A DNA stretch of 42,439 nucleotides, taken from contig DUEH01000001.1 of assembly GCA_011192195.1 (NCBI GenBank), positions 11,559 to 53,997 of the forward strand, written 5' to 3'. Origin of the DNA: Chloroflexota bacterium. Its GTDB lineage: Bacteria > Chloroflexota > Anaerolineae > 4572-78. The notes below the pieces were generated by a model. It had not been told where the DNA came from and ran no database searches. It saw nothing but the letters and a program-made list of their open reading frames with translations. Positions 21,727-40,042 of the stretch are shown one piece after another; position 1 is the stretch's first letter, and each line of letters opens with the position of its first letter. The position numbers and the translations under genes were made by a program.

Positions 21727-23940
21727 TTACTCAAGTTTCCCCAATGCCCGCAGGACGCGCTCCGGGGTGAGAGGGAATTGGTCAAACCAGATGCCGGTGG
21801 CGTTGTGAACGGCGGCGGTGACGGCGGGAGCGTAGATCAGATAGGGCATTTCGGCCATTCCGCGCGCGCCATAAGGTCCTTCAGGGTGCGGGTCTTCCAC
21901 AATGATTGATTCCACCCGCTCCGGGATGTCTGAGATGCCGGGGATGAGATAGGTGCTGAGGTTGGGCGTCAGGATTTCGCCGTTTTTGGTCTGAAATTCT
22001 TCCAGAATGGTGTAGCCGTGCGCCTGCACAATGGCTCCTTCTATTTGCCCGATGACCTGTTCCGGGTTGATGGCTTTGCCCACATCATTGGCGCAGATGA
22101 CTCGCTGCACGGTAATGAAGCCGGTTTCCGTATCCACCGTAAGTTCTACCGTTTCGCACACGTAACCGTAGGCAAAGTTGGGCATACATTCGCCCGTTTC
22201 CGGGTCAAAGGTGGTGGTTTTGGGGGCGTAGTAGGTGTATTCCACCTTAACCGGGCGTTCTTCGTTCTGCCAGCGCTGCAAGGCTTCCTCTGCCGCGCCT
22301 TTAACGGCGTTTCCGGCCATAAAGGTCAGCCGAGAGGCCGATGCGCTGCCAGCGCTGTCGGCGTAGGCGGTGTCGCCGGCAACCAGAGTGATGCGGTCAA
22401 TGGGAATGTCCAGCGCTTCAGCGGCAATTTGGGTCATTGCGGTGTGATGTCCCTGCCCCACATCGGAACCAGAGATAGACAGCACCGCTTCCTCAATTTT
22501 CGCATCGCCCAGCAATTCAATTCCGGCCCAGCTATTTTCGGGATAGCCCAAACTAAAGCCAATATTTTTGAAGCCCAGTGTAATGCCTGTCCCCCTGGCG
22601 GTATCGCCAACGCCGTCCACTTCCGGGGCCAGCCAATAGCCGTCTTGCTGCGTCCATCCGGCGGCCAGAGCTGTTTTTTCCAGTACCGTTTTCAGGCTGA
22701 TGCCGCCCGGTATGGGCGTGCCGACGGTGAGCGGTTTTTCTTCGTCCAGCAGGTTTTTCATCCGAATTTCTACCGGATCCATTCCCAGCGCTTCGGCCAG
22801 TTTGTTCATCTGGCCTTCGGCAGCAAATTGGGCTTGCGGACCGCCAAAGCCCCTGAAAGCCCCGCCGGGGATGTTATTGGTGTAAACGGCAAAGGCGTCC
22901 ATTTTGGCGTGAGGCCAGTAGTAGGGGCCGCCAACCGTCATAATGGCGTTAGCCAATACTTTGTTGCTGGTGTACATATACGCGCCACCGTCGCTAACGA
23001 TTTTACTTTCAACGGCTACCAGCGTACCGTCTTGTTTAGCGCCCCATTTGGCTTGTATGGTCATTGGGTGACGTTTGCAGTGGCCGATGATCGATTCTTC
23101 GCGGCTCCAGACAATTTTTACCGGACGATTGACGCCCCGCTGTTGCAGCTTGTACACGGCCAGACCCAGAATGATCTGCACAGAGATGTCTTCTCTACCG
23201 CCAAATGCGCCGCCGATGGCGTCGTGAATGACGCGCACTTTTTCCGACGGCAGGGCCAAGGCGTGGGCTATTTGTTCTTGCTCTTCCCAGGCCCATTGAC
23301 CGGCGCAGGCAACGGCTATGCGGCCTTCATCGTCAATATAGGCGGTTCCCGCTTCCGGCTGCAAGTAGGCGTGTTCCTGCCAGGGCGTGTGATAGGTGTT
23401 TTCGATGATTATGTCACATTGCTCCCAGGCAGAATCGGTATCACCTCGCCGAATTTTGTCATGGGTGGCAATGTTGTCCGGGCAGTGAGGGTGAAGTTGG
23501 GGCGCGTCTTCTTCCATTGCCGCAAAGGGGTCGGTGACGGCGGGCAGGTCTTCGTATTCCACGTTGATCAAATCGCAGGCTTTGGCGGCAATTTTTTCGT
23601 TGACTGCCACCACTACGGCTATTTGATCGCCCACAAAGCGAGCCACATCCGCGCCCTCTTTGCTTGAACCCGGACCGCACAGTACCGGTTGGTCCGGCGT
23701 TTGCAAGCCGTATTCGTTTACCGGTACGTCTTTGGCCGTCAGCACAAGCACCACGCCGGGCAAGGCTTCGGCGGCGGCAGTGTCAATGCTGAGAATGCGC
23801 GTGTGGACTCGTTTGGCAAAGTGTACTTTTAGCCAGAATTGGTTGTTGTGGTTCTGATCGCCGGGGTAAAGTGTTTCGCCGGTCACTTTGCCCCAGGCGT
23901 CCAGCCGATTGATAGATTGACCGATGAACTTGTGCGTCAT
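21727..23940 (-). CDS. xanthine dehydrogenase / aldehyde oxidase family, molybdopterin-binding large subunit
   Basis: 737 aa. N-terminal Ald_Xan_dh-type region (GKVTGETLYPGD, VLTAKDVP), then FGGRE, GGAFRGFG and the C-terminal GARGMAEMP typical of the family. Confidence 0.85.
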   Translation of the reverse strand: MTHKFIGQSINRLDAWGKVTGETLYPGDQNHNNQFWLKVHFAKRVHTRILSIDTAAAEALPGVVLVLTAKDVPVNEYGLQTPDQPVLCGPGSSKEGADVARFVGDQIAVVVAVNEKIAAKACDLINVEYEDLPAVTDPFAAMEEDAPQLHPHCPDNIATHDKIRRGDTDSAWEQCDIIIENTYHTPWQEHAYLQPEAGTAYIDDEGRIAVACAGQWAWEEQEQIAHALALPSEKVRVIHDAIGGAFGGREDISVQIILGLAVYKLQQRGVNRPVKIVWSREESIIGHCKRHPMTIQAKWGAKQDGTLVAVESKIVSDGGAYMYTSNKVLANAIMTVGGPYYWPHAKMDAFAVYTNNIPGGAFRGFGGPQAQFAAEGQMNKLAEALGMDPVEIRMKNLLDEEKPLTVGTPIPGGISLKTVLEKTALAAGWTQQDGYWLAPEVDGVGDTARGTGITLGFKNIGFSLGYPENSWAGIELLGDAKIEEAVLSISGSDVGQGHHTAMTQIAAEALDIPIDRITLVAGDTAYADSAGSASASRLTFMAGNAVKGAAEEALQRWQNEERPVKVEYTYYAPKTTTFDPETGECMPNFAYGYVCETVELTVDTETGFITVQRVICANDVGKAINPEQVIGQIEGAIVQAHGYTILEEFQTKNGEILTPNLSTYLIPGISDIPERVESIIVEDPHPEGPYGARGMAEMPYLIYAPAVTAAVHNATGIWFDQFPLTPERVLRALGKLE

Positions 23941-24045
23941 AGCTTATTCCGCCCTATTGCGAGATATTTTAGATAGAAATTGGGTAGTGGTTACACGGTA
24001 AGTGATGCTTCGGAGCAACAAAGTTTAACTTTGTCGCCCCATCAC

Positions 24046-24981
24046 TTACTCTTTCACCACTACCAGAAATTGCTCAACTTCAGCCAGAGTAGACGCTTCA
24101 AGCGCTATATCTGCCAGAGAGAGAAGTTGGTCTGAATTTAATTGATGAATACGGCCCTTGAGTTCAGCGCTTACCGGCGTAAATCGGTGTTCCAGAATGT
24201 ATAGCAACATTTTTTGTCGTTCTTGCTGTTGACCTTGCTCAAGACCTCGCTGTTGACCTTGCTCAAGACCTTGCTCAAGACCCTGCTCAAGACCCTGCTC
24301 AAGACCTTGCTCAAGACCTTTTTCAAGACCTTTTTCAAGAATTTGGTTGTACCAAGGTGATTCTCTTAAAATTGTCATATCCCACCTCATAATTTTGCTA
24401 ACTATTTTGGCGTCCAGAACAAAACTGGCAAAGAAAGCCAGTAAGGACTCCATTTCTGCCAGTTTTTCATCGTTGCGGAGTAAGGCGACGGCCTGTTTTA
24501 GAACTGATGGCTCCTGCCCGCCCTTCAGAATGGGAACAAAAGGCAATAACGGCGACAGGTTTTGCTCAAATACCAGATTAACGTCTTCTTCCCACAAATT
24601 TATCACCCGAAAATCTTGATGCGCTGTCAGCCCCATAAACTCATTGTGGTAGTTGTTGCCAAGTACCTTACCCGGTAATATGTTCACTACAACCGGATAG
24701 ATGTTGAGATCGTAATGCTCTTCGGCCAGAGCTGCATAAGCCCTTATTCGCCGGGCCATTCGTTTGTTCGGGCGTATTTGAATTTCATTGACGATCAAAA
24801 AGGTTCCATGTTGGGCAGATTTGACCTTGAGTAAAGCATCGTTCGCTCGGCTGATCCATTGAAACTCCTCCGACAAGAGTTCAATAGCCTCTACATCAGG
24901 ATTGCCGGTGAGCCAGCGCGCCCAGGCGGTTGGTTTCAGTTTGATCAGACGTTTGCTGCCGATATCGGCTGTTTTGGGCAT
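24046..24981 (-). CDS. Rpn-family recombination-promoting nuclease / putative transposase (PD-(D/E)XK) with a DUF4351-like C-terminus
   Basis: N-terminal GSKRLIKLKPTAWARWL, core D...NEIQIRPNKRM, a GLEQ repeat linker and C-terminal ILEHRFTPVSAELKGRIHQLNSDQLLSLADIAL. Confidence 0.65.
   Translation of the reverse strand: MPKTADIGSKRLIKLKPTAWARWLTGNPDVEAIELLSEEFQWISRANDALLKVKSAQHGTFLIVNEIQIRPNKRMARRIRAYAALAEEHYDLNIYPVVVNILPGKVLGNNYHNEFMGLTAHQDFRVINLWEEDVNLVFEQNLSPLLPFVPILKGGQEPSVLKQAVALLRNDEKLAEMESLLAFFASFVLDAKIVSKIMRWDMTILRESPWYNQILEKGLEKGLEQGLEQGLEQGLEQGLEQGQQRGLEQGQQQERQKMLLYILEHRFTPVSAELKGRIHQLNSDQLLSLADIALEASTLAEVEQFLVVVKE
24227..24346. repeat. 10 tandem 12-bp units (TCAAGACCTTGC and variants) inside the Rpn-family gene
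   Basis: Read directly. They encode (GLEQ/GLEK)n on the minus strand. Confidence 0.9.
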
Positions 24982-24993
24982 TGATGAGCGTCT

Positions 24994-26400
24994 CTATGAT
25001 GTTGTAGCAGTTTTCTCAAATGCTTTCAAGATGTTGTAGTAGCCGGTGCAGCGACACAGGTTTCCGGTTAATCCTTGCTTGATTTCACCGGGCGTGGGGT
25101 GTTCGTTTTCCAGCAGCAATGAAGCGCCGCTCATCAAAAAGCCGGGGGTGCAGTAACCGCATTGCACGGCGTCTTCCTTGATGAAGCTTTCTTGCAGCGG
25201 ATGTTCCATTAGCCCTTCTACGGTGATGATTTCGCTGCGGTGCGCTCTGGGCGCGGGAACCAGACAACTCATCACGGCCACGCCGTCTAGCAGCACGGTG
25301 CAAGCGCCGCATTCGCCTTCGGCGCAGCCTTCTTTGGTTCCGGTCAGGTAGAGGTCTTCACGCAACATCCGCAACAGGGTTTTATCGTTGGCGTGGCGGA
25401 CGATGACTGGCTCACCGTTGACAATGGAAACTATGGCCTCTTCGCCCTCTTCGGTGTGGGGGGTAGATTCGTTTTCCCGGTAGGGGTAATGACCGTCGGT
25501 GTCGCTCCAAAGCATAATGGGCGTGTCCGGGAGATGGTCTTTTTCCTCGCCGTTGCGCAGGGCGGTGAGGGCGAGGCGTGTGTAAACTCCCACTGAATAG
25601 CGGCGATAAGATGCGCTGCCGCGGAGGTCATCAATGGGTTTGGCGGCTTCGGCGGCTAGATTGGCAGCGTGGGTAATAATCTTGTCGCTGAACGATTGCC
25701 CAATCAGGGCGGCTTCGGCTTTGGGAGCGCGGATGATGGTGGGCGCAACACTGCCCAGCGTAATGCGAGCGTCTGAGATTTTGTCCCTATCAAAGGTAAG
25801 GACAACGGCTACGTTGATAATCGAAATAGCTTGAGCGCGGCGTAGTCCCAGTTTTTCAAATGTTCCCACCTGATTGGGCTGCATTGCCGGAAAGTGAATG
25901 TCTACCAGCATTTCCTGGGGAGTCAGCGCGGTCTTTCGTACGCCCAGAAAGAAGTCTTTTAGCGATAAGGTGCGTTCGCCGTCAACGCTGGCCAATGTGA
26001 CGCTGGCATCCAGAGCCATCATAGGGCTAATAGTGTCGTTGGCAGGCGAAGCGGTGATCAGGTTGCCAGCTACGGTTCCTCTATTACGAATTTGCGGTGA
26101 GCCGATCTGCCAGCACGCATTGACCAATGGAAAGGCGCGCTCTCGGCATAGCGTTGAGCCAATAACCTGATTGTGGGTGATAGTTGGCCCCAGGTGGATG
26201 CGCTCATCTTCGTCCAGCCAAATGGTATCCAGCCCGTTCAAGCGGCTGATGTCAATGACAGCTTCGGGGCGGCGAATGCCTTTTTCTATTTCCAGAATCA
26301 GGTCGGTTCCCCCGGCAATTATCCTGGCATTCGGTTGAAATTCGTCCAGCAGTTCCAGAGCTTGTTGTAGAGAAGTGGGAGTGTAGTAGTTTTTCCACAT
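24994..26400 (-). CDS. fused FAD-binding (CoxM/XdhB-like) and [2Fe-2S] (CoxS/XdhC-small-like) subunit of a molybdenum hydroxylase
   Basis: N-terminal IIAGGTDLILEI (FAD_binding_5-like). C-terminal GCAEGECGACTV, QCGYCTPGF and NLCRCTGY are the two 2Fe-2S Cys clusters. Confidence 0.85.
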   Translation of the reverse strand: MWKNYYTPTSLQQALELLDEFQPNARIIAGGTDLILEIEKGIRRPEAVIDISRLNGLDTIWLDEDERIHLGPTITHNQVIGSTLCRERAFPLVNACWQIGSPQIRNRGTVAGNLITASPANDTISPMMALDASVTLASVDGERTLSLKDFFLGVRKTALTPQEMLVDIHFPAMQPNQVGTFEKLGLRRAQAISIINVAVVLTFDRDKISDARITLGSVAPTIIRAPKAEAALIGQSFSDKIITHAANLAAEAAKPIDDLRGSASYRRYSVGVYTRLALTALRNGEEKDHLPDTPIMLWSDTDGHYPYRENESTPHTEEGEEAIVSIVNGEPVIVRHANDKTLLRMLREDLYLTGTKEGCAEGECGACTVLLDGVAVMSCLVPAPRAHRSEIITVEGLMEHPLQESFIKEDAVQCGYCTPGFLMSGASLLLENEHPTPGEIKQGLTGNLCRCTGYYNILKAFEKTATTS

Positions 26401-31834: not shown

Positions 31835-31931
31835 TGACTTTGTTGTTCCAGGAATTGCGTGTATGATAGGCAACAGCCTGCGCTGTACATCATCCTGATC
31901 GCCGCGCGTTTTTTCAAATGAGGAAGCCACA

Positions 31932-32753
31932 GTGCGTCAACTTGTCTTAACTCTTGCCGCTTTGCTCTTGCTAACGGCCTGTTCAGCTCAATCCATTGAG
32001 GTTCCGGTTGAAGTGACGGTGGTTGTGACGGCCACGCCCGACCCATCGGCAGCCCATAAGCCGGAAGAAGGTGTGATCACTATTCCGGCCGATGAACAGC
32101 GCAGCCAATGGTCCGCCCGACAGCCGGAAGAATACACCCAGCTATCGGCCCCGTTTTCCCTGAATGACAAAAAAGCTATCAAAGCCGGCAAAACCCTGTA
32201 TCGAGACAATAGCTGCCATTTGTGCCACGGAGCCAGAGGAAACGGCGAAGGACGCATCAGTCCCGGCCTGAATCCCCGTCCCATTGACCTGACCGACGGC
32301 GCATTGATGGCGCGCTTGGACGACGGCTACCTTTTTTGGCGCATCAGCCAGGGCGGTTCGCAGCCGCCTTTCCTGTCGGCGATGCCGGCTTGGGAAGATA
32401 TGTTGACGCAGGAGGAGCGCTGGCAGATCATTGTTTATTTGCGCAGCATTGCAGTTGAGCCGGCCGATACGCTCATCGGCGGCGTTGAAAAGCAGGTTGG
32501 CCTGCAATTGCTACAGGTCAGCGGCTGCCTGGGATGCCACCATTACAAAGGCAAAGGGGGGCGCGTTGGCCCGGAATTGAGCGACGTGGGGTCCCGACGT
32601 GACGTTGATTTCATTCGGGAATCGATCATCAACCCATCGGCGGTGGTGGCAGAGGATTACAGAGACCTGATGGCCCAGGATTACGCCGAGCGTATCAGCG
32701 AAGCAGATTTGGATATGCTGATTGATTTTCTGGCAGGCTCCGTGGAAAAATAA
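31932..32753 (+). CDS. dihaem c-type cytochrome lipoprotein
   Basis: Lipobox LLLLTAC and two CxxCH motifs (CHLCH, CLGCH). GTG start. Confidence 0.75.
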   Translation: MRQLVLTLAALLLLTACSAQSIEVPVEVTVVVTATPDPSAAHKPEEGVITIPADEQRSQWSARQPEEYTQLSAPFSLNDKKAIKAGKTLYRDNSCHLCHGARGNGEGRISPGLNPRPIDLTDGALMARLDDGYLFWRISQGGSQPPFLSAMPAWEDMLTQEERWQIIVYLRSIAVEPADTLIGGVEKQVGLQLLQVSGCLGCHHYKGKGGRVGPELSDVGSRRDVDFIRESIINPSAVVAEDYRDLMAQDYAERISEADLDMLIDFLAGSVEK

Positions 32754-32904: not shown

Positions 32905-34980
32905 ATGTTGTGGGGTAACACGACAATGGGTAGTTCTGAAGAGACAAATATCAGAAAGAACAAAGCCCGTTCCCGTCTTCGACTCAATCTGGGGGAGCGA
33001 TTGGCCCTTAGCATTGGGGTGATCATTGGCTTGACCAGCCTGGTCCTCTTTTTGTGGCTCTCACATCGCCAGGAAACGCAGGCGCTACGGATGGTTGAAG
33101 CTCAAGCTCAGGCATTGCTGACCGATATGCTGGTCACCCGAGAATGGGTATCCAGTTACGGCGGCGTGTGGACCGACCATCCGGGGGAAATTTACCTGGA
33201 AGAAAAAGACGGCTACTTTCTCAAATCGCCGGCGATGGTCACCAAGGAACTGTCGAATCTTTCGACCAACAAAGGTCTCTACGAATTCCACATCACCAGC
33301 CTCCATCTCAAAAATCCTGATAACGTCCCCGACGCTTTTGAACTGGAAGTCTTGCGCCAATTCGAAGAGGATACTACCCCTGTCAGCCGAGTTGAGGCGG
33401 TAGATGGAGAGCGCTTCTACCGCAAAATGATTCCGCTGCCCACCACAATCTCCTGCCTGGAATGTCACGCCGATCAGGGCTATCAAGTGGGCGATATTAG
33501 GGGCGGCCTCAGCGTGATGTTGCCTATGGCGGAAGTTGATCAGGCGCTAACCGCTAATCGGCAGGCTTTGATGTTGGCTATGGTTGCTATTGTTGCCTTG
33601 ATGGTTGGGCTGCTCTACTATTTTGTGCGACGAATCATTGTCGCCCCCATTGGCAAACTGACATCGGCTACCCAGACCATTGCGGCGGGAAATTACGATG
33701 TTTGCTGCGCTATCCACACCGGCGACGAGTTGGAAACGCTGTCCGATTCTTTCAATCAAATGGTGCAAAATCTAAAAAATTCTCACAACGCTCTGCAACA
33801 ACAAGTGGCTGAACGCACCAGAGAATTGACTGCCCTGTCAGAAATAGCTCTGACCATCAGTCGCTCTGAAGACCTGGAAACGGTATTGAAAGAAGGGCTG
33901 GGACAGGTTATCCAGGCTGCGGAAATGGATAGCGGCGCCGTCCACCTGCTGCAATCTAATGGCGCCCCTTATCTTGTCGCCAACAAAGATTTGCCCGTGT
34001 CCGTAACAAGCTGTATGGCCGATCAGGAAAAAGATAGTGGATTCCTGATTGGAATAAGTCAGGAAAAAATTCCCTTTTTTCATACCAGCCTTGTGAAAGG
34101 AACATGCCAATTTCAAGCCACCGGCGTGCCTTGCCCGGCTGCCGGCGCAGGCTACGGCGCGTTGGTTTCCGTCCCCCTCCGCTCCCGCAATCAGACATTG
34201 GGGACCTTGACACTATTATCCCACCAGGCATACGTTCCCTCTGACGAACTAATACAATTTATAACCTGTATGGGAAACCAGTTGGGCGCAGCCGTATCTA
34301 GCTCTCGCTACCACGAGCAGGTTGAACAACTGGCAACGGTAGAAGAACGCAGCCGCATTGGCCGGGAACTGCATGACAGTCTGGCTCAAACTTTGGGCTA
34401 TCTTAATCTGCAAACCCGCGCCGTCAGCGACCTGCTGCAAGTTGACCAGATACCCCAAGCCATTGACGAACTGAATGAGGCCCGTCAGGTAATCAAAGAT
34501 GCCTACGAAGAAATTCGTCACGCTATCTTTGACCTACGCTACACCACCCACCTCAACGGCGATTTTGGCGCCGCCCTGCGCGAATACCTTTACGAATACG
34601 CTCTCCAGAGCGCCATCCCCGTCGAATTATTGCCGGACGACTCAGCCGCCTGGCGCTTCCCCCCTGAAGTAGAGATCCAACTCCTGCGCATCATTCAAGA
34701 AGCCCTCACAAACGTCCGCCGCCACGCCGAGGCAGGCAAAGCGCGTATCAGCCTTATTCCCGGCGACGGCGTCAGCATCATCCGCATCGAGGATGACGGA
34801 CGCGGCATCCCCCCCCACCACGCCCGCCCCAAAGACCGCCCCCACTTTGGCCTGCAAATCATGCGCGAACGCGCCGAAAGCATCGGCGGCCAACTTACTG
34901 TTTTCCAGAGTGAATGGGGAGGCGCGGTAGTGAAGATTAGCCTGCCCAACGCCTATGACAAGGAGCAGGTGGGCAGGTGA
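32905..34980 (+). CDS. sensor histidine kinase: DUF3365 (c-type haem) - HAMP - GAF - HisKA_3 - HATPase_c
   Basis: N-terminal TM. DUF3365-like LKNPDNVPDAFE...CLECHADQGYQVGDIRGGLSV contains a CxxCH. HAMP (ELETLSDSFNQMV). H-box ERSRIGRELHDSLAQTL. The ATPase region includes RIEDDGRGIP. The exact start is uncertain. Confidence 0.8.
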   Translation: MLWGNTTMGSSEETNIRKNKARSRLRLNLGERLALSIGVIIGLTSLVLFLWLSHRQETQALRMVEAQAQALLTDMLVTREWVSSYGGVWTDHPGEIYLEEKDGYFLKSPAMVTKELSNLSTNKGLYEFHITSLHLKNPDNVPDAFELEVLRQFEEDTTPVSRVEAVDGERFYRKMIPLPTTISCLECHADQGYQVGDIRGGLSVMLPMAEVDQALTANRQALMLAMVAIVALMVGLLYYFVRRIIVAPIGKLTSATQTIAAGNYDVCCAIHTGDELETLSDSFNQMVQNLKNSHNALQQQVAERTRELTALSEIALTISRSEDLETVLKEGLGQVIQAAEMDSGAVHLLQSNGAPYLVANKDLPVSVTSCMADQEKDSGFLIGISQEKIPFFHTSLVKGTCQFQATGVPCPAAGAGYGALVSVPLRSRNQTLGTLTLLSHQAYVPSDELIQFITCMGNQLGAAVSSSRYHEQVEQLATVEERSRIGRELHDSLAQTLGYLNLQTRAVSDLLQVDQIPQAIDELNEARQVIKDAYEEIRHAIFDLRYTTHLNGDFGAALREYLYEYALQSAIPVELLPDDSAAWRFPPEVEIQLLRIIQEALTNVRRHAEAGKARISLIPGDGVSIIRIEDDGRGIPPHHARPKDRPHFGLQIMRERAESIGGQLTVFQSEWGGAVVKISLPNAYDKEQVGR

Positions 34981-35050
34981 GAAAGTGAGCAGGTGAGCAG
35001 ATAGCATCTTCCCGCCTGCTCACTTTCTCACTTTCTTACCTGCCCACCTC
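34965..35050. repeat. period-7 array (CAGGTGG GCAGGTG AGAAAGT GAGCAGG TGAGCAG) with an inverted partner
   Basis: The left arm contains the kinase stop codon. The right arm is CCTGCTC ACTTTCT CACTTTC TTACCTG CCCACCT. Confidence 0.8.
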
Positions 35051-35178
35051 CCCCCGCGCCTCCATAAGAACTACGCCAACCTAGTCCTTCCGGTTAGTTG
35101 CAAAATAACAATCTTGAACCATAGACAGTAAATATTGTTTGGGTGTAGCATGCATGATGAATGGATGGGTAGGTTGTA

Positions 35179-35213
35179 GTGTTGCGTGAAGTGCGAAGCA
35201 CTTCACGCAACAC
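35179..35213 (+). promoter_or_regulatory. perfect 16-bp inverted repeat upstream of the Rieske gene (operator or 5'-UTR hairpin)
   Basis: GTGTTGCGTGAAGTGC-gaa-GCACTTCACGCAACAC. No T-run follows. It ends 54 nt before the start codon. Confidence 0.4.
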
Positions 35214-35266
35214 GAACGCTAACTCAATCCAAAAACGCAAATGACAAAATTTCACAGGAGGAGAAT

Positions 35267-35758
35267 ATGTCATCACAAGAATCGCAAGCCCCCCCCACGA
35301 CGACCCGCCGCAAATTTATGCAAACGGTCATCGCCACATTAGGGGGGATCATCACCGCCGGATTTGCCATTCCGGCCGTTGGCTACGTAGTAGGTCCGGC
35401 GCTGCAAGAGAAGGTAGAGGCCTGGTTTCAGGTGGGAACCGCCAGCAAAATCCCCGTTGGCGAGCCGACTCTCTTGAAAATCAGCATAGAACGGAAAAGC
35501 GGCTGGATAGTAGACACTCAGGAACACGCCTATTACGTCTACACCGAAGACGGGCAGAACTATCAGGCTGTGTCCAATGTCTGCACCCACCTGGGCTGCC
35601 GAGTGCGCTGGATTGAGGACCAGGAAATTTTCTTCTGCCCCTGCCACAACGCCAGCTTTGCCAAAAATGGCGATGTACTCGACGGCCCGCCGCCGCGCCC
35701 TCTGGACAAAGCAGAACTCAAAATTGAAGACGATCAGATTTACATAAAGGGAGGTTGA
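35267..35758 (+). CDS. Rieske [2Fe-2S] subunit of a cytochrome bc/b6f-type complex, Tat-exported
   Basis: The ATG follows AGGAGG. Twin-arginine TTTRRKFMQ. Cluster boxes CTHLGCRV and CPCHNASF. Confidence 0.85.
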   Translation: MSSQESQAPPTTTRRKFMQTVIATLGGIITAGFAIPAVGYVVGPALQEKVEAWFQVGTASKIPVGEPTLLKISIERKSGWIVDTQEHAYYVYTEDGQNYQAVSNVCTHLGCRVRWIEDQEIFFCPCHNASFAKNGDVLDGPPPRPLDKAELKIEDDQIYIKGG

Positions 35759-35759
35759 T

Positions 35760-36416
35760 ATGGCAGCAATAGGCGATTGGTTTGATGATCGATTGGGGTG
35801 GCGCGGGGTATGGGAGACCATATTTGCCCGCAAAATCCCCAAAGTCAATTGGTTTTACACTCTGGGCAGCGCCACCCTCTTTACGGCTATTAGCCAGGGC
35901 ATCACCGGCATTCTGCTCACCCTGTACTACGTCCCCACTCCGGACCACGCCTGGGACAGCGTAGCCTACATTATGTACGAGCTTCCCTTTGGCTGGTTCA
36001 TCAGAGGGGTACACCACTGGGGATCCAGCGTCATGGTGGTGTTGGTCTTCCTGCATATGCTCCGAGTGGTCTTTATGGGATCCTACAAATTCCCCCGCGA
36101 GTTCACCTGGATCACCGGCTTATTATTGCTGCTCCTCACTCTGGGCTTTGGCTTCACTGGCTACCTGCTTCCCTGGGACCAAAAATCGTACTGGGCCACT
36201 ACTGTTGGCACTCGCATTGCCGAAGTTACCCCGGTGATAGGCCACTTCACTCTAAAGGTGATGCGCGGCGGAGAGGAATTGAGCGCCCTCACTCTGGCGC
36301 GTTTCTTTGGCGCCCATGTCTGGGTGTTGCCTATCTCGCTTATTGTGTTGATCAGTTCTCACATGTACCTGATCCTCCGACACGGCATTACAGCGCCGCC
36401 CAAGAAAGGTGAGTGA
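35760..36416 (+). CDS. cytochrome b (b6-type, N-terminal four-helix half)
   Basis: Haem ligand pairs are H-x13-H (HHWGSSVMVVLVFLH) and H-x14-H (HVWVLPISLIVLISSH). The 14-residue spacing is the b6/Firmicute type. Confidence 0.85.
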   Translation: MAAIGDWFDDRLGWRGVWETIFARKIPKVNWFYTLGSATLFTAISQGITGILLTLYYVPTPDHAWDSVAYIMYELPFGWFIRGVHHWGSSVMVVLVFLHMLRVVFMGSYKFPREFTWITGLLLLLLTLGFGFTGYLLPWDQKSYWATTVGTRIAEVTPVIGHFTLKVMRGGEELSALTLARFFGAHVWVLPISLIVLISSHMYLILRHGITAPPKKGE

Positions 36417-36417
36417 A

Positions 36418-38532
36418 ATGAAAAAACAAGAGCAAGAACAATACCTGAAAGATTATAAGAAAGCCAAAGAAAAGGGCATCCCTTTCTTTCCCGATGTCAT
36501 TTTCAAGGACACCATCGCCGCCTTCGTGATATTCCTTGTTCTGATCGCGCTGGCCGTTTTCATTGGCGCGCCTTTGGAGGAACAGGCCAACCCTCAGGAT
36601 ACCAGCTACACTCCTAAACCGGAATGGTACTTCCTCTTCCTCTTCCAGGCCCTAAAATACTTTCCGGGCAACCTGGAGGTCATTGGCGCGGTCATCATCC
36701 CCACGCTGGTGGTCGTTGCGCTGTTCCTCTTACCATTTCTGGATCGCAGTCCCAAGCGCCACCTGATGAGCCGCCCCATCGCCACTATTGTCACCATTCT
36801 GTCCGTGGTATTGATTGTCGGCTTGACCGTTGTTGCCCAACTGGAAGCCCCACCCCCCGCCGAAGCCCACGTTACGGATTTAGCGGCCACGCTCTACGAG
36901 CAGAACTGCTCCAGTTGTCACGGTCAGGTCGTGGAGGCAGGCACCGCCAATTTACACGATGTCATTGTCAGCGGCGGGCACGAAGGGATGCCGGCCTGGG
37001 GCGGTGACTTGAGCGCGGATGAAGTTGACCTTCTGGTTGGCTACATCTCCTCGCCCCAAGGGAACATTGTCTACATTCGCGAGTGCGCCGGTTGCCACGA
37101 AAACGAAATACCGATAGTAGAAAAGCCTATGGAATTGATAGCTATTCTGGACCAAGGCCCGGACCATCCCCTTCACGCCGATACGAAAAAGATACCTTAT
37201 TGGACGGAAGAACTCTCGGGCGGCGAGCGCAACGCTCTACTCAACTTCCTGGCCGCGCCCGACGGTCAGCGGCTCTACACCATCAACTGCGCCGGATGTC
37301 ACGGTATGGGGATTGACCACGTTGCCGAAACAGAAGACCTGGAAGCCGAACTGCTTGCAGTGATCATCCAGGGCGAACACAACCGCGACATGCCCGCTTT
37401 CGACGATACCCTGTCTGAAGTTGAGATTGGCATACTGACCGATTACGTGATGGACCCGGCTAAATCGCCCGCTGGCGCGTCCCTTTTCCAGGCCAATTGT
37501 TCTTCCTGCCACCACGACAGAGTACCCACCTCAGACAAAAAATCCGAGGCCAAAAAAGCGATTTCCGCCGGCGGTATGCATGAAGTAATGCCCGCCTGGG
37601 GCGACGTGCTTACCCCGGAACAGTTAGACGCTTTGGTCGGCTACGTCGCTGAACTGGTGGAAGGAGTTGGCGCCGGTAAAGGCGGCGCTCTCTACCGGGA
37701 TAACTGCGCCCTGTGTCACGGACCCTTCGGCGAAGGCGGACCCAACCCCGGCCAACCCGGCGACGTTATCGCCCCCATCAGCACCTCCGAATACCTGAGT
37801 ACCCGCAACGACTTGACCCTGAAGCAGATTATCTCAATGGGTCAGCCAAACTTCGGTATGTCGCCCTTTGGTTCGGCTCACGGCGGACCGTTGGAAAATG
37901 AAGACATTGATGCCATTGTGGCCCTGATGCGTGCCTGGGAAGCCAACCCGCCGGTAGACCTACCGCCTGAAATTGACGCTGGCATTGTCGCTTATGGCGG
38001 CGAAGAAGTCTTCCTGAACATCTGCGCCAACTGTCACGGACCCGAAGGCAAAGGGGACATCGGCCCGGCCCTTAACTCGGACGATTTCCGCTCTGCCTAC
38101 GATGACGACGACACTTTTGCCGTCGTTGCCGACGGACATGCAGGCACAGTGATGATTGGCTGGGGCAACATCCTCACCGAAGAACAAATTTGGGACGTGA
38201 TTGACTACATGAGTATCTGGGGCGGCCCGCAGCCCGGCGAAGAGATTTTGTTCGCCGAACACATCCAGCCCCTCTTTGACCGCAAATGCTTCCGCTGTCA
38301 CGGCGATAAGCTGGATTCAGGCGACTGGCGCAGCGACACTTACGAAGCCATAATGGAAAGCGGCAAAAACGCGCCCAACATCATCCCCGGCGATCCGGAC
38401 AGCAGTTTGCTCATCCAAAGACTGCTCAACAAGCCATCCGGCGGCGGACAAATGCCCCCCGCCAGGATGATGAACGAGCGTCAAATTCAGTGGGTGATTG
38501 ACTGGGTAGCAGAGGGAGCGCCGAATAATTAA
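36418..38532 (+). CDS. subunit IV (cytochrome b C-terminal half) fused to seven c-type cytochrome domains
   Basis: N-terminal PFFPD...PEWYFLFLFQALKYFP (PetD/QcrB-C like) with 3 TM helices. Seven CxxCH motifs follow (CSSCH, CAGCH, CAGCH, CSSCH, CALCH, CANCH, CFRCH). The last domain resembles a PSCyt1-type domain (IIPGDPDSSLL). The ATG at 36418 lies 2 nt after the cyt b stop; the alternative GTG is at 36409. Confidence 0.8.
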   Translation: MKKQEQEQYLKDYKKAKEKGIPFFPDVIFKDTIAAFVIFLVLIALAVFIGAPLEEQANPQDTSYTPKPEWYFLFLFQALKYFPGNLEVIGAVIIPTLVVVALFLLPFLDRSPKRHLMSRPIATIVTILSVVLIVGLTVVAQLEAPPPAEAHVTDLAATLYEQNCSSCHGQVVEAGTANLHDVIVSGGHEGMPAWGGDLSADEVDLLVGYISSPQGNIVYIRECAGCHENEIPIVEKPMELIAILDQGPDHPLHADTKKIPYWTEELSGGERNALLNFLAAPDGQRLYTINCAGCHGMGIDHVAETEDLEAELLAVIIQGEHNRDMPAFDDTLSEVEIGILTDYVMDPAKSPAGASLFQANCSSCHHDRVPTSDKKSEAKKAISAGGMHEVMPAWGDVLTPEQLDALVGYVAELVEGVGAGKGGALYRDNCALCHGPFGEGGPNPGQPGDVIAPISTSEYLSTRNDLTLKQIISMGQPNFGMSPFGSAHGGPLENEDIDAIVALMRAWEANPPVDLPPEIDAGIVAYGGEEVFLNICANCHGPEGKGDIGPALNSDDFRSAYDDDDTFAVVADGHAGTVMIGWGNILTEEQIWDVIDYMSIWGGPQPGEEILFAEHIQPLFDRKCFRCHGDKLDSGDWRSDTYEAIMESGKNAPNIIPGDPDSSLLIQRLLNKPSGGGQMPPARMMNERQIQWVIDWVAEGAPNN

Positions 38533-38537
38533 ACAAC

Positions 38538-38591
38538 AGTGAAAAATGAATAGTGAATAATTTTTCACTATTCATTTTTCATTATTCATTG
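38538..38591. repeat. period-7 array (AGTGAAA AATGAAT AGTGAAT) with an inverted partner; likely terminator hairpin
   Basis: Read directly. The right arm is TTTTTCA CTATTCA TTTTTCA TTATTCA. Confidence 0.8.
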
Positions 38592-38610
38592 ATTTAGCGC
38601 GGGTTTTCCA

Positions 38611-39270
38611 ATGACTGAAGAAGCGATCAAAATCCTGGTAGTGGACGATCACCCCCTCTTTCGCAAGGGAGTCGTCCATATGCTTCAGGGTGAAACGGAC
38701 ATGGAGATCATCGGCGAGGCGGGCGAAGGTGAAACAGCCCTGAATATGACCCGCGAACTGATGCCGGACATAACCCTGATGGACGTTTCCATGCCCGGCT
38801 GGGATGGCATAAAGGCCACCAGACGGATCATGGAGGAATTTCCCTCAGCGCGCATTGTGATGCTCACTGTCAACGACGATGACCGCTCTCTCTTCAACGC
38901 CATCAAAGCGGGCGCGCGGGGCTACCTCTTCAAAAATCTGGAGCCGGAAGACCTGATCGCGATGGTGCGGGGCGTCTTTCGGGGCGAGGCGCCCATCTCT
39001 CGCATCACGGCCAATCGCATTTTGCAGGAATTTGGCCGTCTTGCCCGCCATGAAACAAAACCCTCGGTGGCTGACCTTAGCCCCCGCGAGAAGGAAATCC
39101 TCAAGTTGGTGGCCAAAGGCGATTCCAACAAAGAAATCGCCAGAGAATTGATCATTACCGAATACACCGTCAAGAACCATTTGCGCAATATCCTGGAAAA
39201 ACTTCACGTCCGCAATCGGGTAGAAGCCGCCGCCATCGCCGTACGAGAGGGGCTGGTGGAAAACAACTAA
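38611..39270 (+). CDS. NarL/FixJ-family response regulator (REC + LuxR-type HTH)
   Basis: ILVVDDHPLFRKG, phospho-acceptor region ITLMDVSMPGWDG, and C-terminal LSPREKEILKLVAKGDSNKEIA...VKNHLRNILEKL. Confidence 0.9.
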   Translation: MTEEAIKILVVDDHPLFRKGVVHMLQGETDMEIIGEAGEGETALNMTRELMPDITLMDVSMPGWDGIKATRRIMEEFPSARIVMLTVNDDDRSLFNAIKAGARGYLFKNLEPEDLIAMVRGVFRGEAPISRITANRILQEFGRLARHETKPSVADLSPREKEILKLVAKGDSNKEIARELIITEYTVKNHLRNILEKLHVRNRVEAAAIAVREGLVENN

Positions 39271-39283
39271 AAACTAAATAAAA

Positions 39284-39445
39284 CACCTCCGAGCCTTATT
39301 GTCTAAGGGACATCGTCCTACGGCAACTGGGCCGATCCTCACCGCGGTGAGGGATTGCCACAAACAGGCGATTACAGGCAGGCGTAGAAATGCGCCGGCC
39401 TCCCGAAGGTCCCCAATTGGGGATACTGACTTGGAAAGGAGGCTT
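39284..39445 (+). promoter_or_regulatory. candidate Moco (molybdenum/tungsten cofactor) riboswitch aptamer
   Basis: The closing helix is CCTCC (39286-39290) / GGAGG (39438-39442). CCUCCGAGCC, GAUUGCCAC (39353-39361), GGCCUCCCG (39397-39405) and GGAAAGGAGG (39433-39442) match my recollection of the RF01055 core. Internal hairpins lie at 39337-39352 and 39410-39423. This has not been verified with a covariance model. Confidence 0.55.
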
Positions 39446-39463
39446 ACAGATGACAATTCTTCT

Positions 39464-39497
39464 GTCGCCAGCTTTCCAAGCTGGCGATTTTTTTTTT
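39464..39497 (+). terminator. intrinsic terminator forming the expression platform of the leader
   Basis: Stem TCGCCAGC (39465-39472) / GCTGGCGA (39480-39487) followed by T10 (39488-39497). It ends 12 nt before the next start codon. Confidence 0.8.
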
Positions 39498-39508
39498 GGA
39501 GATTGGAG

Positions 39509-40042
39509 ATGGCTTCTCTTACTTTACTCACCGGCCCACGCGGCGCGGGTAAAACAAGTTTATGTCTTCATAAGGCCGAAAAGGCGCGGGCAGACGGTCA
39601 GACTGTGGCCGGGTTGCTTTCTCCGGCTCGCTTTGAGCGTAATTACAAAGTTGGCATTGACGCGCTAGACCTCCGCAGCGGACAGCGCCGTCCGCTGGCT
39701 CAACGCCGCAGCAAAGCGACAGGCGGCGCGCCCTTCGACCTTTCGGCTTCGCTCAAGGCAGGCTTTGCTCACCTGCGGCAGCTTGAAACCAGCAACTGGC
39801 GCTTCGACCCCGACGCGCTGGCTTGGGGAGCAGAAGTATTGCGGCAGGCAACGCCCTGCGACCTACTGATAATAGACGAACTGGGACCGCTGGAGTTTGA
39901 GCGCAGAGGGGGCTGGTTAGTCGCACTGGATATCATTACTCAAGGAGACTACCGCCACGCGCTGGTCGTTGTGCGCCCGGAATTGTTAGAAGTGGCTCAA
40001 AATCGCTGGCCCTGGGCGGAAATTTGGCAGGTGGGCGGGTGA
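39509..40042 (+). CDS. small P-loop NTPase (DUF2478/THEP1-like, possibly MobB-like)
   Basis: The ATG follows GGAG. Walker A LLTGPRGAGKTS and Walker B DLLIIDELGPLE. 177 aa. The longer ORF from 39299 would be a translation of the leader RNA. Confidence 0.65.
   Translation: MASLTLLTGPRGAGKTSLCLHKAEKARADGQTVAGLLSPARFERNYKVGIDALDLRSGQRRPLAQRRSKATGGAPFDLSASLKAGFAHLRQLETSNWRFDPDALAWGAEVLRQATPCDLLIIDELGPLEFERRGGWLVALDIITQGDYRHALVVVRPELLEVAQNRWPWAEIWQVGG

What the first reader, a model, noticed from the sequence alone, without database searches (positions are those of the whole stretch)
32905..39270. Rieske/cytochrome b operon embedded between a haem-containing sensor kinase and its response regulator
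The gene order is haem-sensor kinase (DUF3365 with CxxCH, HAMP, GAF, HisKA_3), then Rieske, then cytochrome b6-type, then subunit IV-heptahaem, then a NarL-type regulator. All are on one strand with 1-nt and 2-nt gaps inside the bc core. A two-component pair split by the respiratory complex it presumably regulates is an unusual layout. The kinase carries its own c-type haem, which suggests direct redox or ligand sensing coupled to expression of this complex. A dihaem cytochrome c lipoprotein lies immediately upstream at 31932-32753.
Basis: partly seen in the sequence, partly recalled or inferred. Interest (0 to 1): 0.62.

Follow-up and report, generated by a model that had tools for sequence, protein, structure and literature searches.

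The report
Haem-sensor kinase and regulator flanking bc operon
In this uncultured marine Anaerolineae bacterium, a haem-containing sensor kinase and its probable partner regulator sit on either side of a three-gene respiratory (Rieske/cytochrome b) complex; every part belongs to a known family, and the arrangement is a rare rearrangement specific to this lineage, which makes it moderately interesting rather than new biology.

Summary
On the + strand lie a dihaem cytochrome c lipoprotein, a sensor kinase (sCache_heme/Tll0287-like, HAMP, GAF, HisKA_3, HATPase), Rieske, cytochrome b, subunit IV fused to seven c-haem domains, and a NarL-type regulator. The split layout is rare. In 28 of 29 related kinase loci the regulator directly follows the kinase. 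None of 80 related bc operons has this kinase upstream. The split recurs only in a sister genome and in one vent contig (kinase 56% identical). The kinase is a mosaic. Its sensor-HAMP-GAF part resembles other Anaerolineae sCache_heme kinases. Its DHp/CA core groups with soluble GAF kinases, and the partner regulators of those kinases are the closest orthologues of the window's regulator (65-70%). That congruence argues the split kinase and regulator are partners. A single operon is unlikely. Both junctions are multi-copy palindromic repeat elements, a conserved promoter-like block precedes Rieske, and a Moco riboswitch follows the regulator. The sensor family was described in 2026 as an NO-binding haem Cache domain. 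The heptahaem bc operon is very common in Anaerolineae. Control of the bc operon by this pair is inferred, not shown. Interest is moderate.

The parts
31932..32753 (+). Dihaem class-I cytochrome c lipoprotein. It is probably an accessory gene, because it is absent at this position in the sister genome.
   Evidence: Pfam Cytochrom_C and Cytochrome_CBB3; 2 CxxCH and a lipobox. L080 goes from the up323 homologue straight to the kinase behind the same promoter block.
32926..34980 (+). Sensor histidine kinase with the order TM1, extracytoplasmic sCache_heme (Tll0287-like), TM2, HAMP, GAF, HisKA_3, HATPase_c. An alternative start is at 32905. It is a mosaic: aa 1-457 resemble L001/L082-type kinases, and aa 458-684 resemble GAF-kinase cores.
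33076..33525 (+). sCache_heme (DUF3365/Tll0287-like) c-haem sensor domain carrying the invariant CLECH motif.
   Evidence: PF11845 at 68.1 bits against a cut-off of 24.1. AF2 model pLDDT 91.7. Foldseek top hits are 5B82 Tll0287 and 3B42 GSU0935.
34947..35059 (.). 113-nt GC-rich palindromic multi-copy repeat element. It is inserted at the kinase's 3' end and supplies the kinase's last 10 codons and stop codon.
   Evidence: Fold energy -65.8 kcal/mol, z -9.6. Depth about 150 against 20, contig breaks, and a joint 34946->35060 in X2/X3 that lacks the element. Reading-frame check.
35108..35151 (+). Promoter-like block conserved between the window and L081: ACAATnTTGAnnCATAGACAG, then TAGACA-N18-TAGCAT. 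It is the candidate bc promoter or operator region.
35179..35213 (+). Perfect 16-bp inverted repeat with a 3-nt loop in the presumed 5' leader of Rieske. Its function is unknown.
   Evidence: fold energy -30.6 kcal/mol, z -5.6. It is a single copy in the window.
35267..35758 (+). Rieske 2Fe-2S subunit with a Tat signal (RRKF), CTHLGC and CPCH boxes.
35760..36416 (+). Four-helix cytochrome b (split, b6-like). The protein contains no Cys, so it has no covalent haem ci site.
   Evidence: PF00033 at 171 bits; sequence.
36418..38532 (+). Subunit IV (3 TM helices, PEWY motif) fused to seven monohaem class-I cytochrome c domains. An alternative GTG start is at 36409.
   Evidence: All 7 CxxCH are invariant in 21 homologues.
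38527..38594 (.). AT-rich palindromic multi-copy repeat element between subunit IV and the regulator. It may act as a weak terminator.
   Evidence: fold energy -26.6 kcal/mol, z -6.6. Depth 250-631 against 10-20 with many different flanks. The sister genome has a different palindrome at this site.
38611..39270 (+). NarL/FixJ-type response regulator (receiver plus GerE HTH). It is the orthologue of regulators paired with GAF-HisKA_3 kinases.
39275..39498 (+). Moco riboswitch aptamer (39275-39457) followed by a terminator-like hairpin with a T-run (39464-39498). It marks the start of a separate downstream unit (NTPase_1, ABC).
   Evidence: RF01055 at 58.3 bits against a gathering score of 36, E 2.6e-12. 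Terminator scan.

Best explanation
The locus has three modules.

(1) A membrane sensor kinase. Its extracytoplasmic domain is an sCache_heme (DUF3365/Tll0287-like) domain with one covalently attached c-haem. It is followed by HAMP, GAF and a HisKA_3/HATPase core.

(2) A tightly packed, probably translationally coupled Rieske / cytochrome b / subunit IV-heptahaem c complex. This is a quinol:cytochrome c oxidoreductase of the split-cytochrome-b kind and is standard in Anaerolineae.

(3) A NarL-type response regulator.

The kinase and regulator are most likely a cognate pair, even though the complex separates them. The kinase is a mosaic in which an sCache_heme-HAMP-GAF input was joined to the DHp/CA core of a GAF-kinase lineage, and the partner regulator of that lineage is the orthologue of the window's regulator.

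Proposed mechanism (inferred):
- A ligand such as NO, or a change in the redox state of the extracytoplasmic haem, changes kinase activity.
- The phosphorylated regulator acts on the conserved promoter block in the kinase-Rieske spacer, and probably on nearby N-oxide respiration genes (nap-type genes lie about 5 kb downstream in the sister genome).

The split order is a derived rearrangement specific to this lineage. Kinase, bc genes and regulator are probably separate transcription units bounded by palindromic repeat elements.

Shown: domain content, haem motifs, rarity and conservation of the layout, mosaic ancestry, repeat nature of the spacers.
Inferred: haem attachment, the signal, phosphotransfer, the target promoters.
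For: - Domains and motifs. CxxCH is invariant. Sensor fold.
- Layout statistics: 28 of 29 related kinases have an adjacent regulator; 0 of 38 and 0 of 30 bc loci show the window's arrangement.
- The split layout is conserved in L081 (kinase 56%, Rieske 66%, cyt b 74%, subunit IV 67%) and in the sister genome.
- Mosaic kinase: identity to L082/L001 is 63-64% in the sensor, 54-58% in HAMP and 46-51% in GAF, but only 40-42% in DHp and 34% in CA. Identity to the GAF kinases L164/L165/L169 is 48-50% in DHp and 49% in CA.
- NJ bootstrap: the kinase core groups with GAF-kinase cores in 85% of replicates against 1.4% for the alternative; the regulator groups with the L164/L165 regulators in 93%.
- The regulator's recognition helix is almost identical to L164's.
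- Related kinase-regulator pairs are regularly followed by extracytoplasmic haem enzymes: NrfH-like plus octahaem, dihaem peroxidase plus MsrPQ-like, or octahaem plus Rieske/cyt b. This fits a role in controlling N-oxide or oxidant-related respiration.
- Other Anaerolineae bc operons often have their own adjacent HisKA_3/NarL pair (8 of 30), so local two-component control of this operon is common.
- The signalling class of sCache_heme binds NO tightly (bioRxiv 10.64898/2026.02.01.703092).
- A conserved promoter-like block lies upstream of Rieske.
Against: - No transcript data exist.
- No operator motif is shared with promoters next to the orthologous regulators.
- The regulator's closest orthologues lie beside nap-type genes, not bc genes, so bc need not be the main target.
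- Bootstrap support for the mosaic is good but not overwhelming (85%). It rests on NJ trees of about 225 columns.
- Three other sCache_heme kinases paired with the same regulator clade (L026, L166, L168) do not share the window's kinase core closely (40-42%).
- In the source sample both junctions pass through multi-copy repeats.
- Haem binding and the nature of the signal are untested.
Confidence: 0.5

Rival explanations
1. The kinase and regulator are partners, but the bc operon is a passenger. The pair mainly controls other genes, such as the nap-type nitrate reductase cluster downstream or haem enzymes elsewhere. The bc genes have their own, unrelated regulation and merely ended up between the two by rearrangement.
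For: - The closest regulator orthologues (70-71%) sit directly upstream of Pyr_redox_2, NapD, a NapA-like gene, NapGH-like genes and an octahaem gene.
- The sister genome has NapD and a NapA-like gene about 5 kb downstream of the regulator.
- bc operons closest to the window's (L170, L173) have no two-component system and are fused to a Mo-oxidoreductase cluster.
- No shared operator was found.
Against: - The kinase-to-bc adjacency is kept at 56% kinase identity.
- Many other bc operons carry their own local HisKA_3/NarL pair.
- A promoter-like block conserved with L081 lies in the spacer.
Confidence: 0.27
2. The kinase and the regulator are not partners. Each is an orphan left over from a different ancestral pair, and each signals with partners encoded elsewhere.
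For: - The regulator is only 42-49% identical to regulators that sit next to the kinase's closest full-length relatives.
- The regulator falls in a different clade from them.
Against: - The kinase DHp/CA core, which is the part that selects the partner, groups with kinases whose partners are this regulator's orthologues.
- No other kinase or regulator gene was seen in the annotated parts of the 42-kb window.
- The two genes stay linked in the sister genome.
Confidence: 0.12
3. The sensor haem reports redox state rather than a gas. It exchanges electrons with the heptahaem subunit or the dihaem lipoprotein, so the kinase monitors electron flow through the very complex it flanks.
For: - The sensor and the c-haem domains are all extracytoplasmic and membrane-anchored.
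- Stand-alone sCache_heme proteins have cytochrome-like potentials (preprint 10.64898/2026.02.01.703092).
- Unrelated dihaem sensor kinases also sit next to the same operon in other Anaerolineae.
Against: - The kinase lacks the distal Cys of the redox-type (Tll0287) class; the only conserved Cys residues are those of CxxCH.
- The signalling class that has been characterised behaves as an NO sensor.
- The dihaem gene is absent in the sister genome.
Confidence: 0.2
4. The layout is an assembly artefact created by mis-joining contigs at the two repeat elements.
For: Independent contigs of run X1 end at both elements, and both elements have many alternative flanks.
Against: - X2/X3 contigs join the kinase's 3' end directly to the Rieske spacer without the repeat.
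- L081 has kinase, Rieske, cyt b and subunit IV on one contig.
- L083 has Rieske through to the regulator on one contig.
Confidence: 0.03

Closest known systems
sCache_heme (DUF3365/Tll0287-like, PF11845) receptors: Tll0287 (PDB 5B82), Geobacter GSU0582/GSU0935, and the Pseudomonas azotoformans Cache_heme-HAMP NO receptor (bioRxiv 10.64898/2026.02.01.703092 and 10.64898/2026.05.25.727664)
   Same: It is an extracytoplasmic Cache-fold domain with a CxxCH motif on a short helix inserted before the last strand, flanked by TM helices and followed by HAMP. It lacks the distal Cys, like the signalling (NO-binding) class.
   Different: The output here is GAF plus a HisKA_3 kinase in Anaerolineae. The preprint calls Chloroflexota a phylum in which the domain is rare or absent, yet about 97 protein clusters with this architecture were found. 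Ligand and haem binding were not tested here.
NarX-NarL / NarQ-NarP nitrate-nitrite two-component systems
   Same: It shares the HisKA_3 kinase core, a NarL/FixJ-type regulator, and a genomic link to N-oxide respiration genes. NarQ, NarX and NarL are the best NCBIfam hits.
   Different: Scores are far below the equivalog cut-offs (207 against 553 for the kinase; 208 against 250 for the regulator). The sensor is a haem Cache domain, not the four-helix P-box nitrate sensor, and an extra GAF domain is present. The genes are not adjacent.
Split-cytochrome-b Rieske/cyt b complexes with c-haem fused to subunit IV or with a multihaem subunit: Bacillus QcrABC (my own knowledge) and the anammox Kuste4569-4574 / Kustd1480-1485 complexes (PMC12954380)
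   Same: It has a Rieske subunit, a four-helix cytochrome b and a subunit IV-like protein with the PEWY motif. c-type haems replace cytochrome f/c1. The c-haems are membrane-anchored.
   Different: It has seven tandem monohaem class-I domains on subunit IV. There is no Cys for haem ci, no NAD(P) oxidoreductase subunit and no HAO-like subunit in this locus. NCBIfam scores for b6, ExtP and QcrB are below their cut-offs.
RegB-SenC-RegA (PrrB-PrrC-PrrA) of Rhodobacter, a redox-responsive pair separated by a respiration-related gene (my own knowledge; not checked here)
   Same: The kinase and regulator genes are separated by a gene or genes of the respiratory chain whose activity the system is thought to monitor.
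   Different: The kinase and regulator families differ, and one small assembly gene lies between them rather than a whole three-subunit complex. In Rhodobacter the kinase is transcribed divergently, whereas here all genes are on one strand. There is no homology.

Membership tests
sCache_heme / Tll0287-like (PF11845) | Profile match above Pfam's gathering score | tested here: met
   68.1 bits against a cut-off of 24.1, aa 58-207, covering the full profile.
sCache_heme / Tll0287-like (PF11845) | Conserved CxxCH on a short helix inserted before the last beta-strand of a Cache fold | tested here: met
   CLECH at aa 184-188 of the 691-aa ORF; its two Cys and the His are invariant in 24 and in 33 aligned homologues. 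The AF2 model places helix 136-142 between strands 120-130 and 149-158. Foldseek top hits are 5B82 and 3B42, followed by Cache domains.
sCache_heme / Tll0287-like (PF11845) | Extracytoplasmic location, which c-haem attachment requires | tested here: met
   Hydrophobic segments at aa 29-55 and 214-249 bracket the domain. This is a prediction only.
sCache_heme / Tll0287-like (PF11845) | Covalently bound haem c; NO binding in the signalling class | not testable with these tools
   This needs haem staining and spectroscopy of the expressed domain.
NarX/NarQ-NarL nitrate/nitrite system | Equivalog-level similarity of the kinase and the regulator | tested here: not met
   NarQ 206.6 against 553; NarX 149.1 against 578; NarL 207.8 against 250. 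It shares the superfamily architecture only.
NarX/NarQ-NarL nitrate/nitrite system | HisKA_3 + HATPase_c kinase with a conserved His, and a receiver + GerE regulator | tested here: met
   Pfam hits. The ELHDSLAQ H-box and the receiver Asp residues are visible in the translations.
Cognate two-component pair (kinase with this regulator) | Adjacent genes, or congruent ancestry of the kinase DHp/CA core and the regulator | tested here: inconclusive
   The genes are not adjacent. The kinase core and the regulator both group with the L164/L165/L169 pairs (85% and 93% bootstrap; identities). Phosphotransfer was not tested.
Rieske/cytochrome b complex, split b6-type | Rieske CTHxGC and CPCH boxes; four-helix cytochrome b with four His ligands; subunit IV with the PEWY motif | tested here: met
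   CTHLGC and CPCHNASF; His in VHHWG, FLHML, GAHVW and SSHMY; YTPKPEWY.
Rieske/cytochrome b complex, split b6-type | Covalent haem ci Cys in cytochrome b6, as in b6f and Firmicutes b6c | tested here: not met
   The 218-aa cytochrome b contains no cysteine (translation). The cytochrome b6 subfamily score is 241.7 against a cut-off of 325.
Single operon (kinase, bc genes and regulator co-transcribed) | One transcript spanning all junctions | not testable with these tools
   No RNA runs hold the region. The sequence argues against it: strong palindromic elements sit at both junctions, and a promoter-like block precedes Rieske.
Moco riboswitch (RF01055), downstream neighbour | Covariance-model score above Rfam's gathering score | tested here: met
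   58.3 bits against 36, full model positions 1-135, E 2.6e-12.

The most novel reading that the evidence does not exclude
Anaerolineae have repeatedly recruited extracytoplasmic haem-c sensor kinases to sit beside the same heptahaem Rieske/cyt b operon. Two unrelated types are involved: sCache_heme here, and a dihaem periplasmic domain in other lineages. In the window's lineage this was achieved by grafting an sCache_heme input onto the kinase core of a nap-linked pair. If the sensor haem reads the redox state or the NO output of the heptahaem complex directly, for example by electron exchange with it, the locus would be a feedback circuit in which a respiratory complex is monitored from outside the membrane by a cytochrome-like kinase.
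Probability: 0.15. Interest if true: 0.65.

Novelty: new variant of a known kind. Interest (0 to 1): 0.38.

Why it matters
If the inference holds, this is a natural example of rewiring a two-component system by domain swapping, in which a haem-based (probably NO- or redox-sensing) input was placed onto a different kinase core and regulator module. It would also give a concrete candidate regulator for the uncharacterised heptahaem Rieske/cyt b complex that is very widespread in sediment Anaerolineae. The sCache_heme family, said to be rare in Chloroflexota, turns out to be a regular companion of multihaem N-oxide and oxidant enzymes in Anaerolineae, which suggests what these sensors respond to in nature. 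None of this overturns current understanding. It is a useful lead for people working on haem sensors or Chloroflexota respiration.

Tried and rejected
1. RNA evidence: no RNA run holds the region, so transcript boundaries could not be tested.

2. Operator search: the block conserved between the window and L081 (ACAATnTTGAnnCATAGACAG) occurs nowhere else in the window or in the 169 loci held at that point. No 10-mer (at most 1 mismatch) from the promoter block recurs convincingly in promoters beside the orthologous regulators.

3. Known RNA families for the hairpins: only sub-threshold 'miRNA' matches, which are generic long-hairpin noise.

4. Cassette idea: I looked for repeats shared by the two junctions. 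No 9-mer is shared between any of the five spacers, and the two palindromic elements are unrelated. There is therefore no sign of a composite mobile cassette.

5. Copies of the elements in fetched loci: none.

6. A first bootstrap with Biopython timed out. A first clade test was too lenient because complements of unrooted splits were counted. It was redone with outgroups on the excluded side.

7. A contig joint 39240->34957 in X1/X3 suggested a second regulator copy followed by the GC-rich element. It was not reproduced when only the regulator gene was laid, so I set it aside as a short local match.

8. NarX/NarQ/NarL, cytochrome b6, ExtP/ExtQ and QcrABC memberships were considered. All were rejected at equivalog level because scores fall below the curated cut-offs.


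Full report
**Observation**

The ORF list and Pfam/NCBIfam scans confirm the gene order on the + strand:
- dihaem cytochrome c, 31932-32753
- sensor kinase, 32905/32926-34980
- Rieske, ORF from 35186 with the likely start at 35267
- cytochrome b, 35760-36416
- subunit IV fused to c-type cytochrome domains, 36409/36418-38532
- NarL-type regulator, 38611-39270

The kinase carries Tll0287-like (PF11845, 68 bits), HAMP, GAF, HisKA_3 and HATPase_c. It has one CxxCH (CLECH) lying between two predicted membrane helices. The subunit IV protein has seven CxxCH, and the upstream cytochrome has two plus a lipobox. With the ATG starts, both gaps inside the bc core are 1 nt. The organism is an uncultured Anaerolineae/Chloroflexota bacterium from marine sediment and hydrothermal vent metagenomes.

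**Is the assembly right?**

Independent contigs of the best-matching run end exactly at the two spacers. Depth there is 150-630 against about 10-20 nearby, and many different flanks are seen. Both junctions therefore run through multi-copy palindromic repeat elements.

The adjacencies still hold:
- Contigs from two other runs join 34946 directly to 35060 without the 113-nt element.
- L081, a vent contig, has kinase, Rieske, cyt b and subunit IV in one piece.
- The sister genome's contig L083 has Rieske, cyt b, subunit IV, regulator and NTPase in one piece.

Without the element the kinase would simply end seven codons later in spacer sequence.

**How unusual is the layout?**

I fetched 79 genome loci with the kinase alignment and 80 metagenome loci with the subunit IV alignment and scored them with tblastn.
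- Of 29 full-length sCache_heme kinases with enough downstream sequence, 28 are followed within 400 nt by a NarL-type regulator.
- Of 38 bc operons with at least 2.5 kb upstream, none has this sensor.
- Of 30 with at least 2.5 kb downstream, none has a regulator directly after subunit IV.

The split order occurs only in the window, in its 88-94% identical sister genome and in L081. In L081 the identities are kinase 56%, Rieske 66%, cyt b 74% and subunit IV 67%, and the contig ends before a regulator could be seen. The layout is rare and derived, but it has been stable over substantial divergence.

**The parts are ordinary for this lineage**

The subunit IV-heptahaem protein of about 705 aa has 1692 database relatives at E <= 1e-20, many of them full-length at about 50% identity. 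All seven haem motifs and PEWY are invariant in the 21 sequences aligned. Rieske, cyt b and subunit IV travel together as a unit wherever the contigs are long enough to show them, usually among many multihaem cytochromes.

In the closest operons outside the window's own lineage (L170, L173), a Tat-exported molybdopterin oxidoreductase, FeS proteins and a NarJ-like chaperone run straight into Rieske. The same NTPase_1 and ABC genes follow downstream as in the window. The kinase and regulator were therefore placed around a pre-existing block of bc, NTPase and ABC genes.

The cytochrome b has no cysteine, so it has no haem ci site.

**What the kinase family usually sits next to**

In Anaerolineae the kinase-regulator pair is typically followed by one of three gene sets:
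- an NrfH-like tetrahaem plus an octahaem cytochrome of family PF13447 (about 14 loci);
- a dihaem cytochrome c peroxidase/MauG-type protein plus MsrP- and MsrQ-like genes (about 5 loci);
- in the window kinase's closest full-length relatives (L001, L002, L003, L023), an octahaem cytochrome plus a Rieske/cyt b complex.

This fits a system that controls extracytoplasmic haem enzymes for N-oxide or oxidant metabolism.

**Are the split kinase and regulator partners?**

The window's regulator is only 42-49% identical to the regulators next to other sCache_heme kinases. It belongs instead to a large orthogroup at 60-73% identity.

Its closest orthologues fall in two contexts:
- L164, L165 and L169 follow soluble GAF-HisKA_3 kinases. 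In L164 the next genes are NapD, a NapA-like gene, NapGH-like genes and an octahaem gene.
- L026, L166 and L168 follow sCache_heme kinases.

Domain-by-domain comparison shows the window kinase is a mosaic.

| Compared with | Sensor | HAMP | GAF | DHp | CA |
|---|---|---|---|---|---|
| L082/L001 | 63-64% | 54-58% | 46-51% | 40-42% | 34% |
| GAF kinases L164/L165/L169 | no homologous region | no homologous region | 17-18% | 48-50% | 49% |
| L081 | 59% | 48% | 44% | 65% | 59% |

L081 shares the mosaic.

In neighbour-joining bootstraps (500 replicates), the window/L080/L081 core groups with the GAF-kinase cores, away from the main sCache_heme kinase clade and the outgroups, in 85% of replicates. 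The alternative appears in 1.4%. The regulator groups with the L164/L165 regulators in 93%. The regulator's recognition helix is almost identical to L164's.

The part of the kinase that selects the partner and the regulator therefore share ancestry. This is the best available evidence that they work together, and that an sCache_heme-HAMP-GAF input was grafted onto another pair's core. It is phylogenetic inference, not a test of phosphotransfer.

**Transcription units**

The kinase-Rieske spacer holds three features:
- the 113-nt GC-rich palindrome (-65.8 kcal/mol);
- a promoter-like block conserved with L081 (TAGACA-N18-TAGCAT, preceded by ACAATnTTGAnnCA);
- a perfect 16-bp inverted repeat in the presumed leader (-30.6 kcal/mol).

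The spacer between subunit IV and the regulator is almost entirely an AT-rich palindrome (-26.6 kcal/mol). The sister genome has a different palindrome there (-55.5 kcal/mol). Immediately after the regulator lies a Moco riboswitch (58.3 bits against a gathering score of 36), followed by a terminator-like hairpin.

These features point to three separate units with possible read-through, not one embedded operon. No RNA data are available.

**What is known**

The sensor domain was described in 2026 as sCache_heme. Its stand-alone members, which have a Cys distal ligand, are redox-type. Its signalling-fused members lack that Cys, and one of them binds NO with a slow off-rate (bioRxiv 10.64898/2026.02.01.703092; see also 10.64898/2026.05.25.727664).

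The window's domain has no conserved Cys outside CxxCH. Its model (pLDDT 91.7) matches Tll0287 and GSU0935 best.

That preprint reports the domain as rare or absent in Chloroflexota. Here about 97 protein clusters with the full kinase architecture were found, and every one that a source names is labelled Anaerolineae or Chloroflexota.

Multihaem Rieske/cyt b complexes are known from anammox bacteria (PMC12954380).

**Verdict**

The most likely reading is a domain-swapped, haem-based (probably NO or redox) sensor kinase and its NarL-type partner, separated by a lineage-specific rearrangement around a common Anaerolineae bc operon. They possibly control that operon and nearby N-oxide respiration genes. 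I classify it as a new variant of known kinds and rate its interest as moderate.

Noticed in passing
window 39275-39498: A Moco (molybdenum/tungsten cofactor) riboswitch aptamer (RF01055, 58.3 bits against a gathering score of 36), followed by a terminator-like hairpin and a T-run. It lies directly after the regulator's stop codon and ahead of the NTPase_1 and ABC-ATPase genes. In the sister genome this block continues to Oxidored_molyb, CbiQ, NapD and a NapA-like gene. The long ORF 39299-40042 therefore probably starts near 39503.
   Followed up: partly
window 34947-35059: A 113-nt GC-rich palindromic element built from GGTGAG-like repeats. It is multi-copy in the metagenome (about 7x local depth, many flanks) and absent from related strains in two other runs. 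It encodes the last 10 codons and the stop of the kinase. It looks like a small mobile palindromic (MITE/REP-like) element.
   Followed up: partly
window 38527-38594; L083 3382-3530: An AT-rich palindromic element with 12-70x local depth and many different flanks. The sister genome carries an unrelated long palindrome (-55.5 kcal/mol) at the same site, so this spacer is an insertion hot spot for such elements.
   Followed up: partly
window 31835-32753; L080 1152-1489: The dihaem cytochrome c gene is missing in the sister genome. The promoter-like block GAATTGCGTGTATGATAGGC precedes the cytochrome gene in the window but lies directly upstream of the kinase in L080. The cytochrome gene is therefore a recent insertion in one genome or a loss in the other.
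   Followed up: partly
L097, L098, L110, L130, L146, L162 (for example L110 2714-4195): In other Anaerolineae a HAMP-HisKA_3 kinase of about 495 aa plus a NarL regulator lies next to the Rieske/cyt b/subunit IV-heptahaem operon, directly after it in five of these loci and upstream of it in L130. Its periplasmic part carries two CxxCH and weakly matches PF21563. This is a second, unrelated haem-c sensor kinase linked to the same operon. A related set (L113, L116, L119, L120, L134) has a 4-TM sensor without haem motifs.
   Followed up: partly
L005, L010-L013, L015-L020, L024, L027, L031; L004, L007, L014, L025, L030: sCache_heme kinase-regulator pairs are followed by conserved cargo: either an NrfH-like tetrahaem plus a PF13447 octahaem cytochrome, or a dihaem peroxidase/MauG-like protein plus MsrP-like and MsrQ-like genes. 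This suggests the family responds to N-oxides or oxidants.
   Followed up: partly
L170 1-10115; L173 1-10109: A Tat-exported molybdopterin oxidoreductase (about 941 aa), an Fer4_11 protein, a beta-propeller protein, a NarJ-like chaperone and a further FeS protein are packed directly against Rieske/cyt b/subunit IV-heptahaem. This suggests a Mo-enzyme/bc supercomplex or a shared electron path.
   Followed up: no
L026 8999-12600; L166 5002-8699: Some sCache_heme kinases are flanked by two NarL-type regulators, one upstream (53-54% to the window's regulator) and one downstream (62-64%).
   Followed up: no
window 19868-21340 and 21727-26400: A DDE transposase gene lies next to a xanthine-dehydrogenase/CO-dehydrogenase-type molybdoenzyme set (MoCoBD; FAD_binding_5 plus Fer2). 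RpoC lies at 6914-11554.
   Followed up: no
window 39240 and 34957 (runs X1, X3): One contig in each of two runs appeared to join sequence ending at 39240 to the GC-rich element at 34957, with 33 nt in between. It was not seen again when only the regulator gene was laid. It is probably another gene's 3' end followed by another copy of the element, but this remains unexplained.
   Followed up: partly
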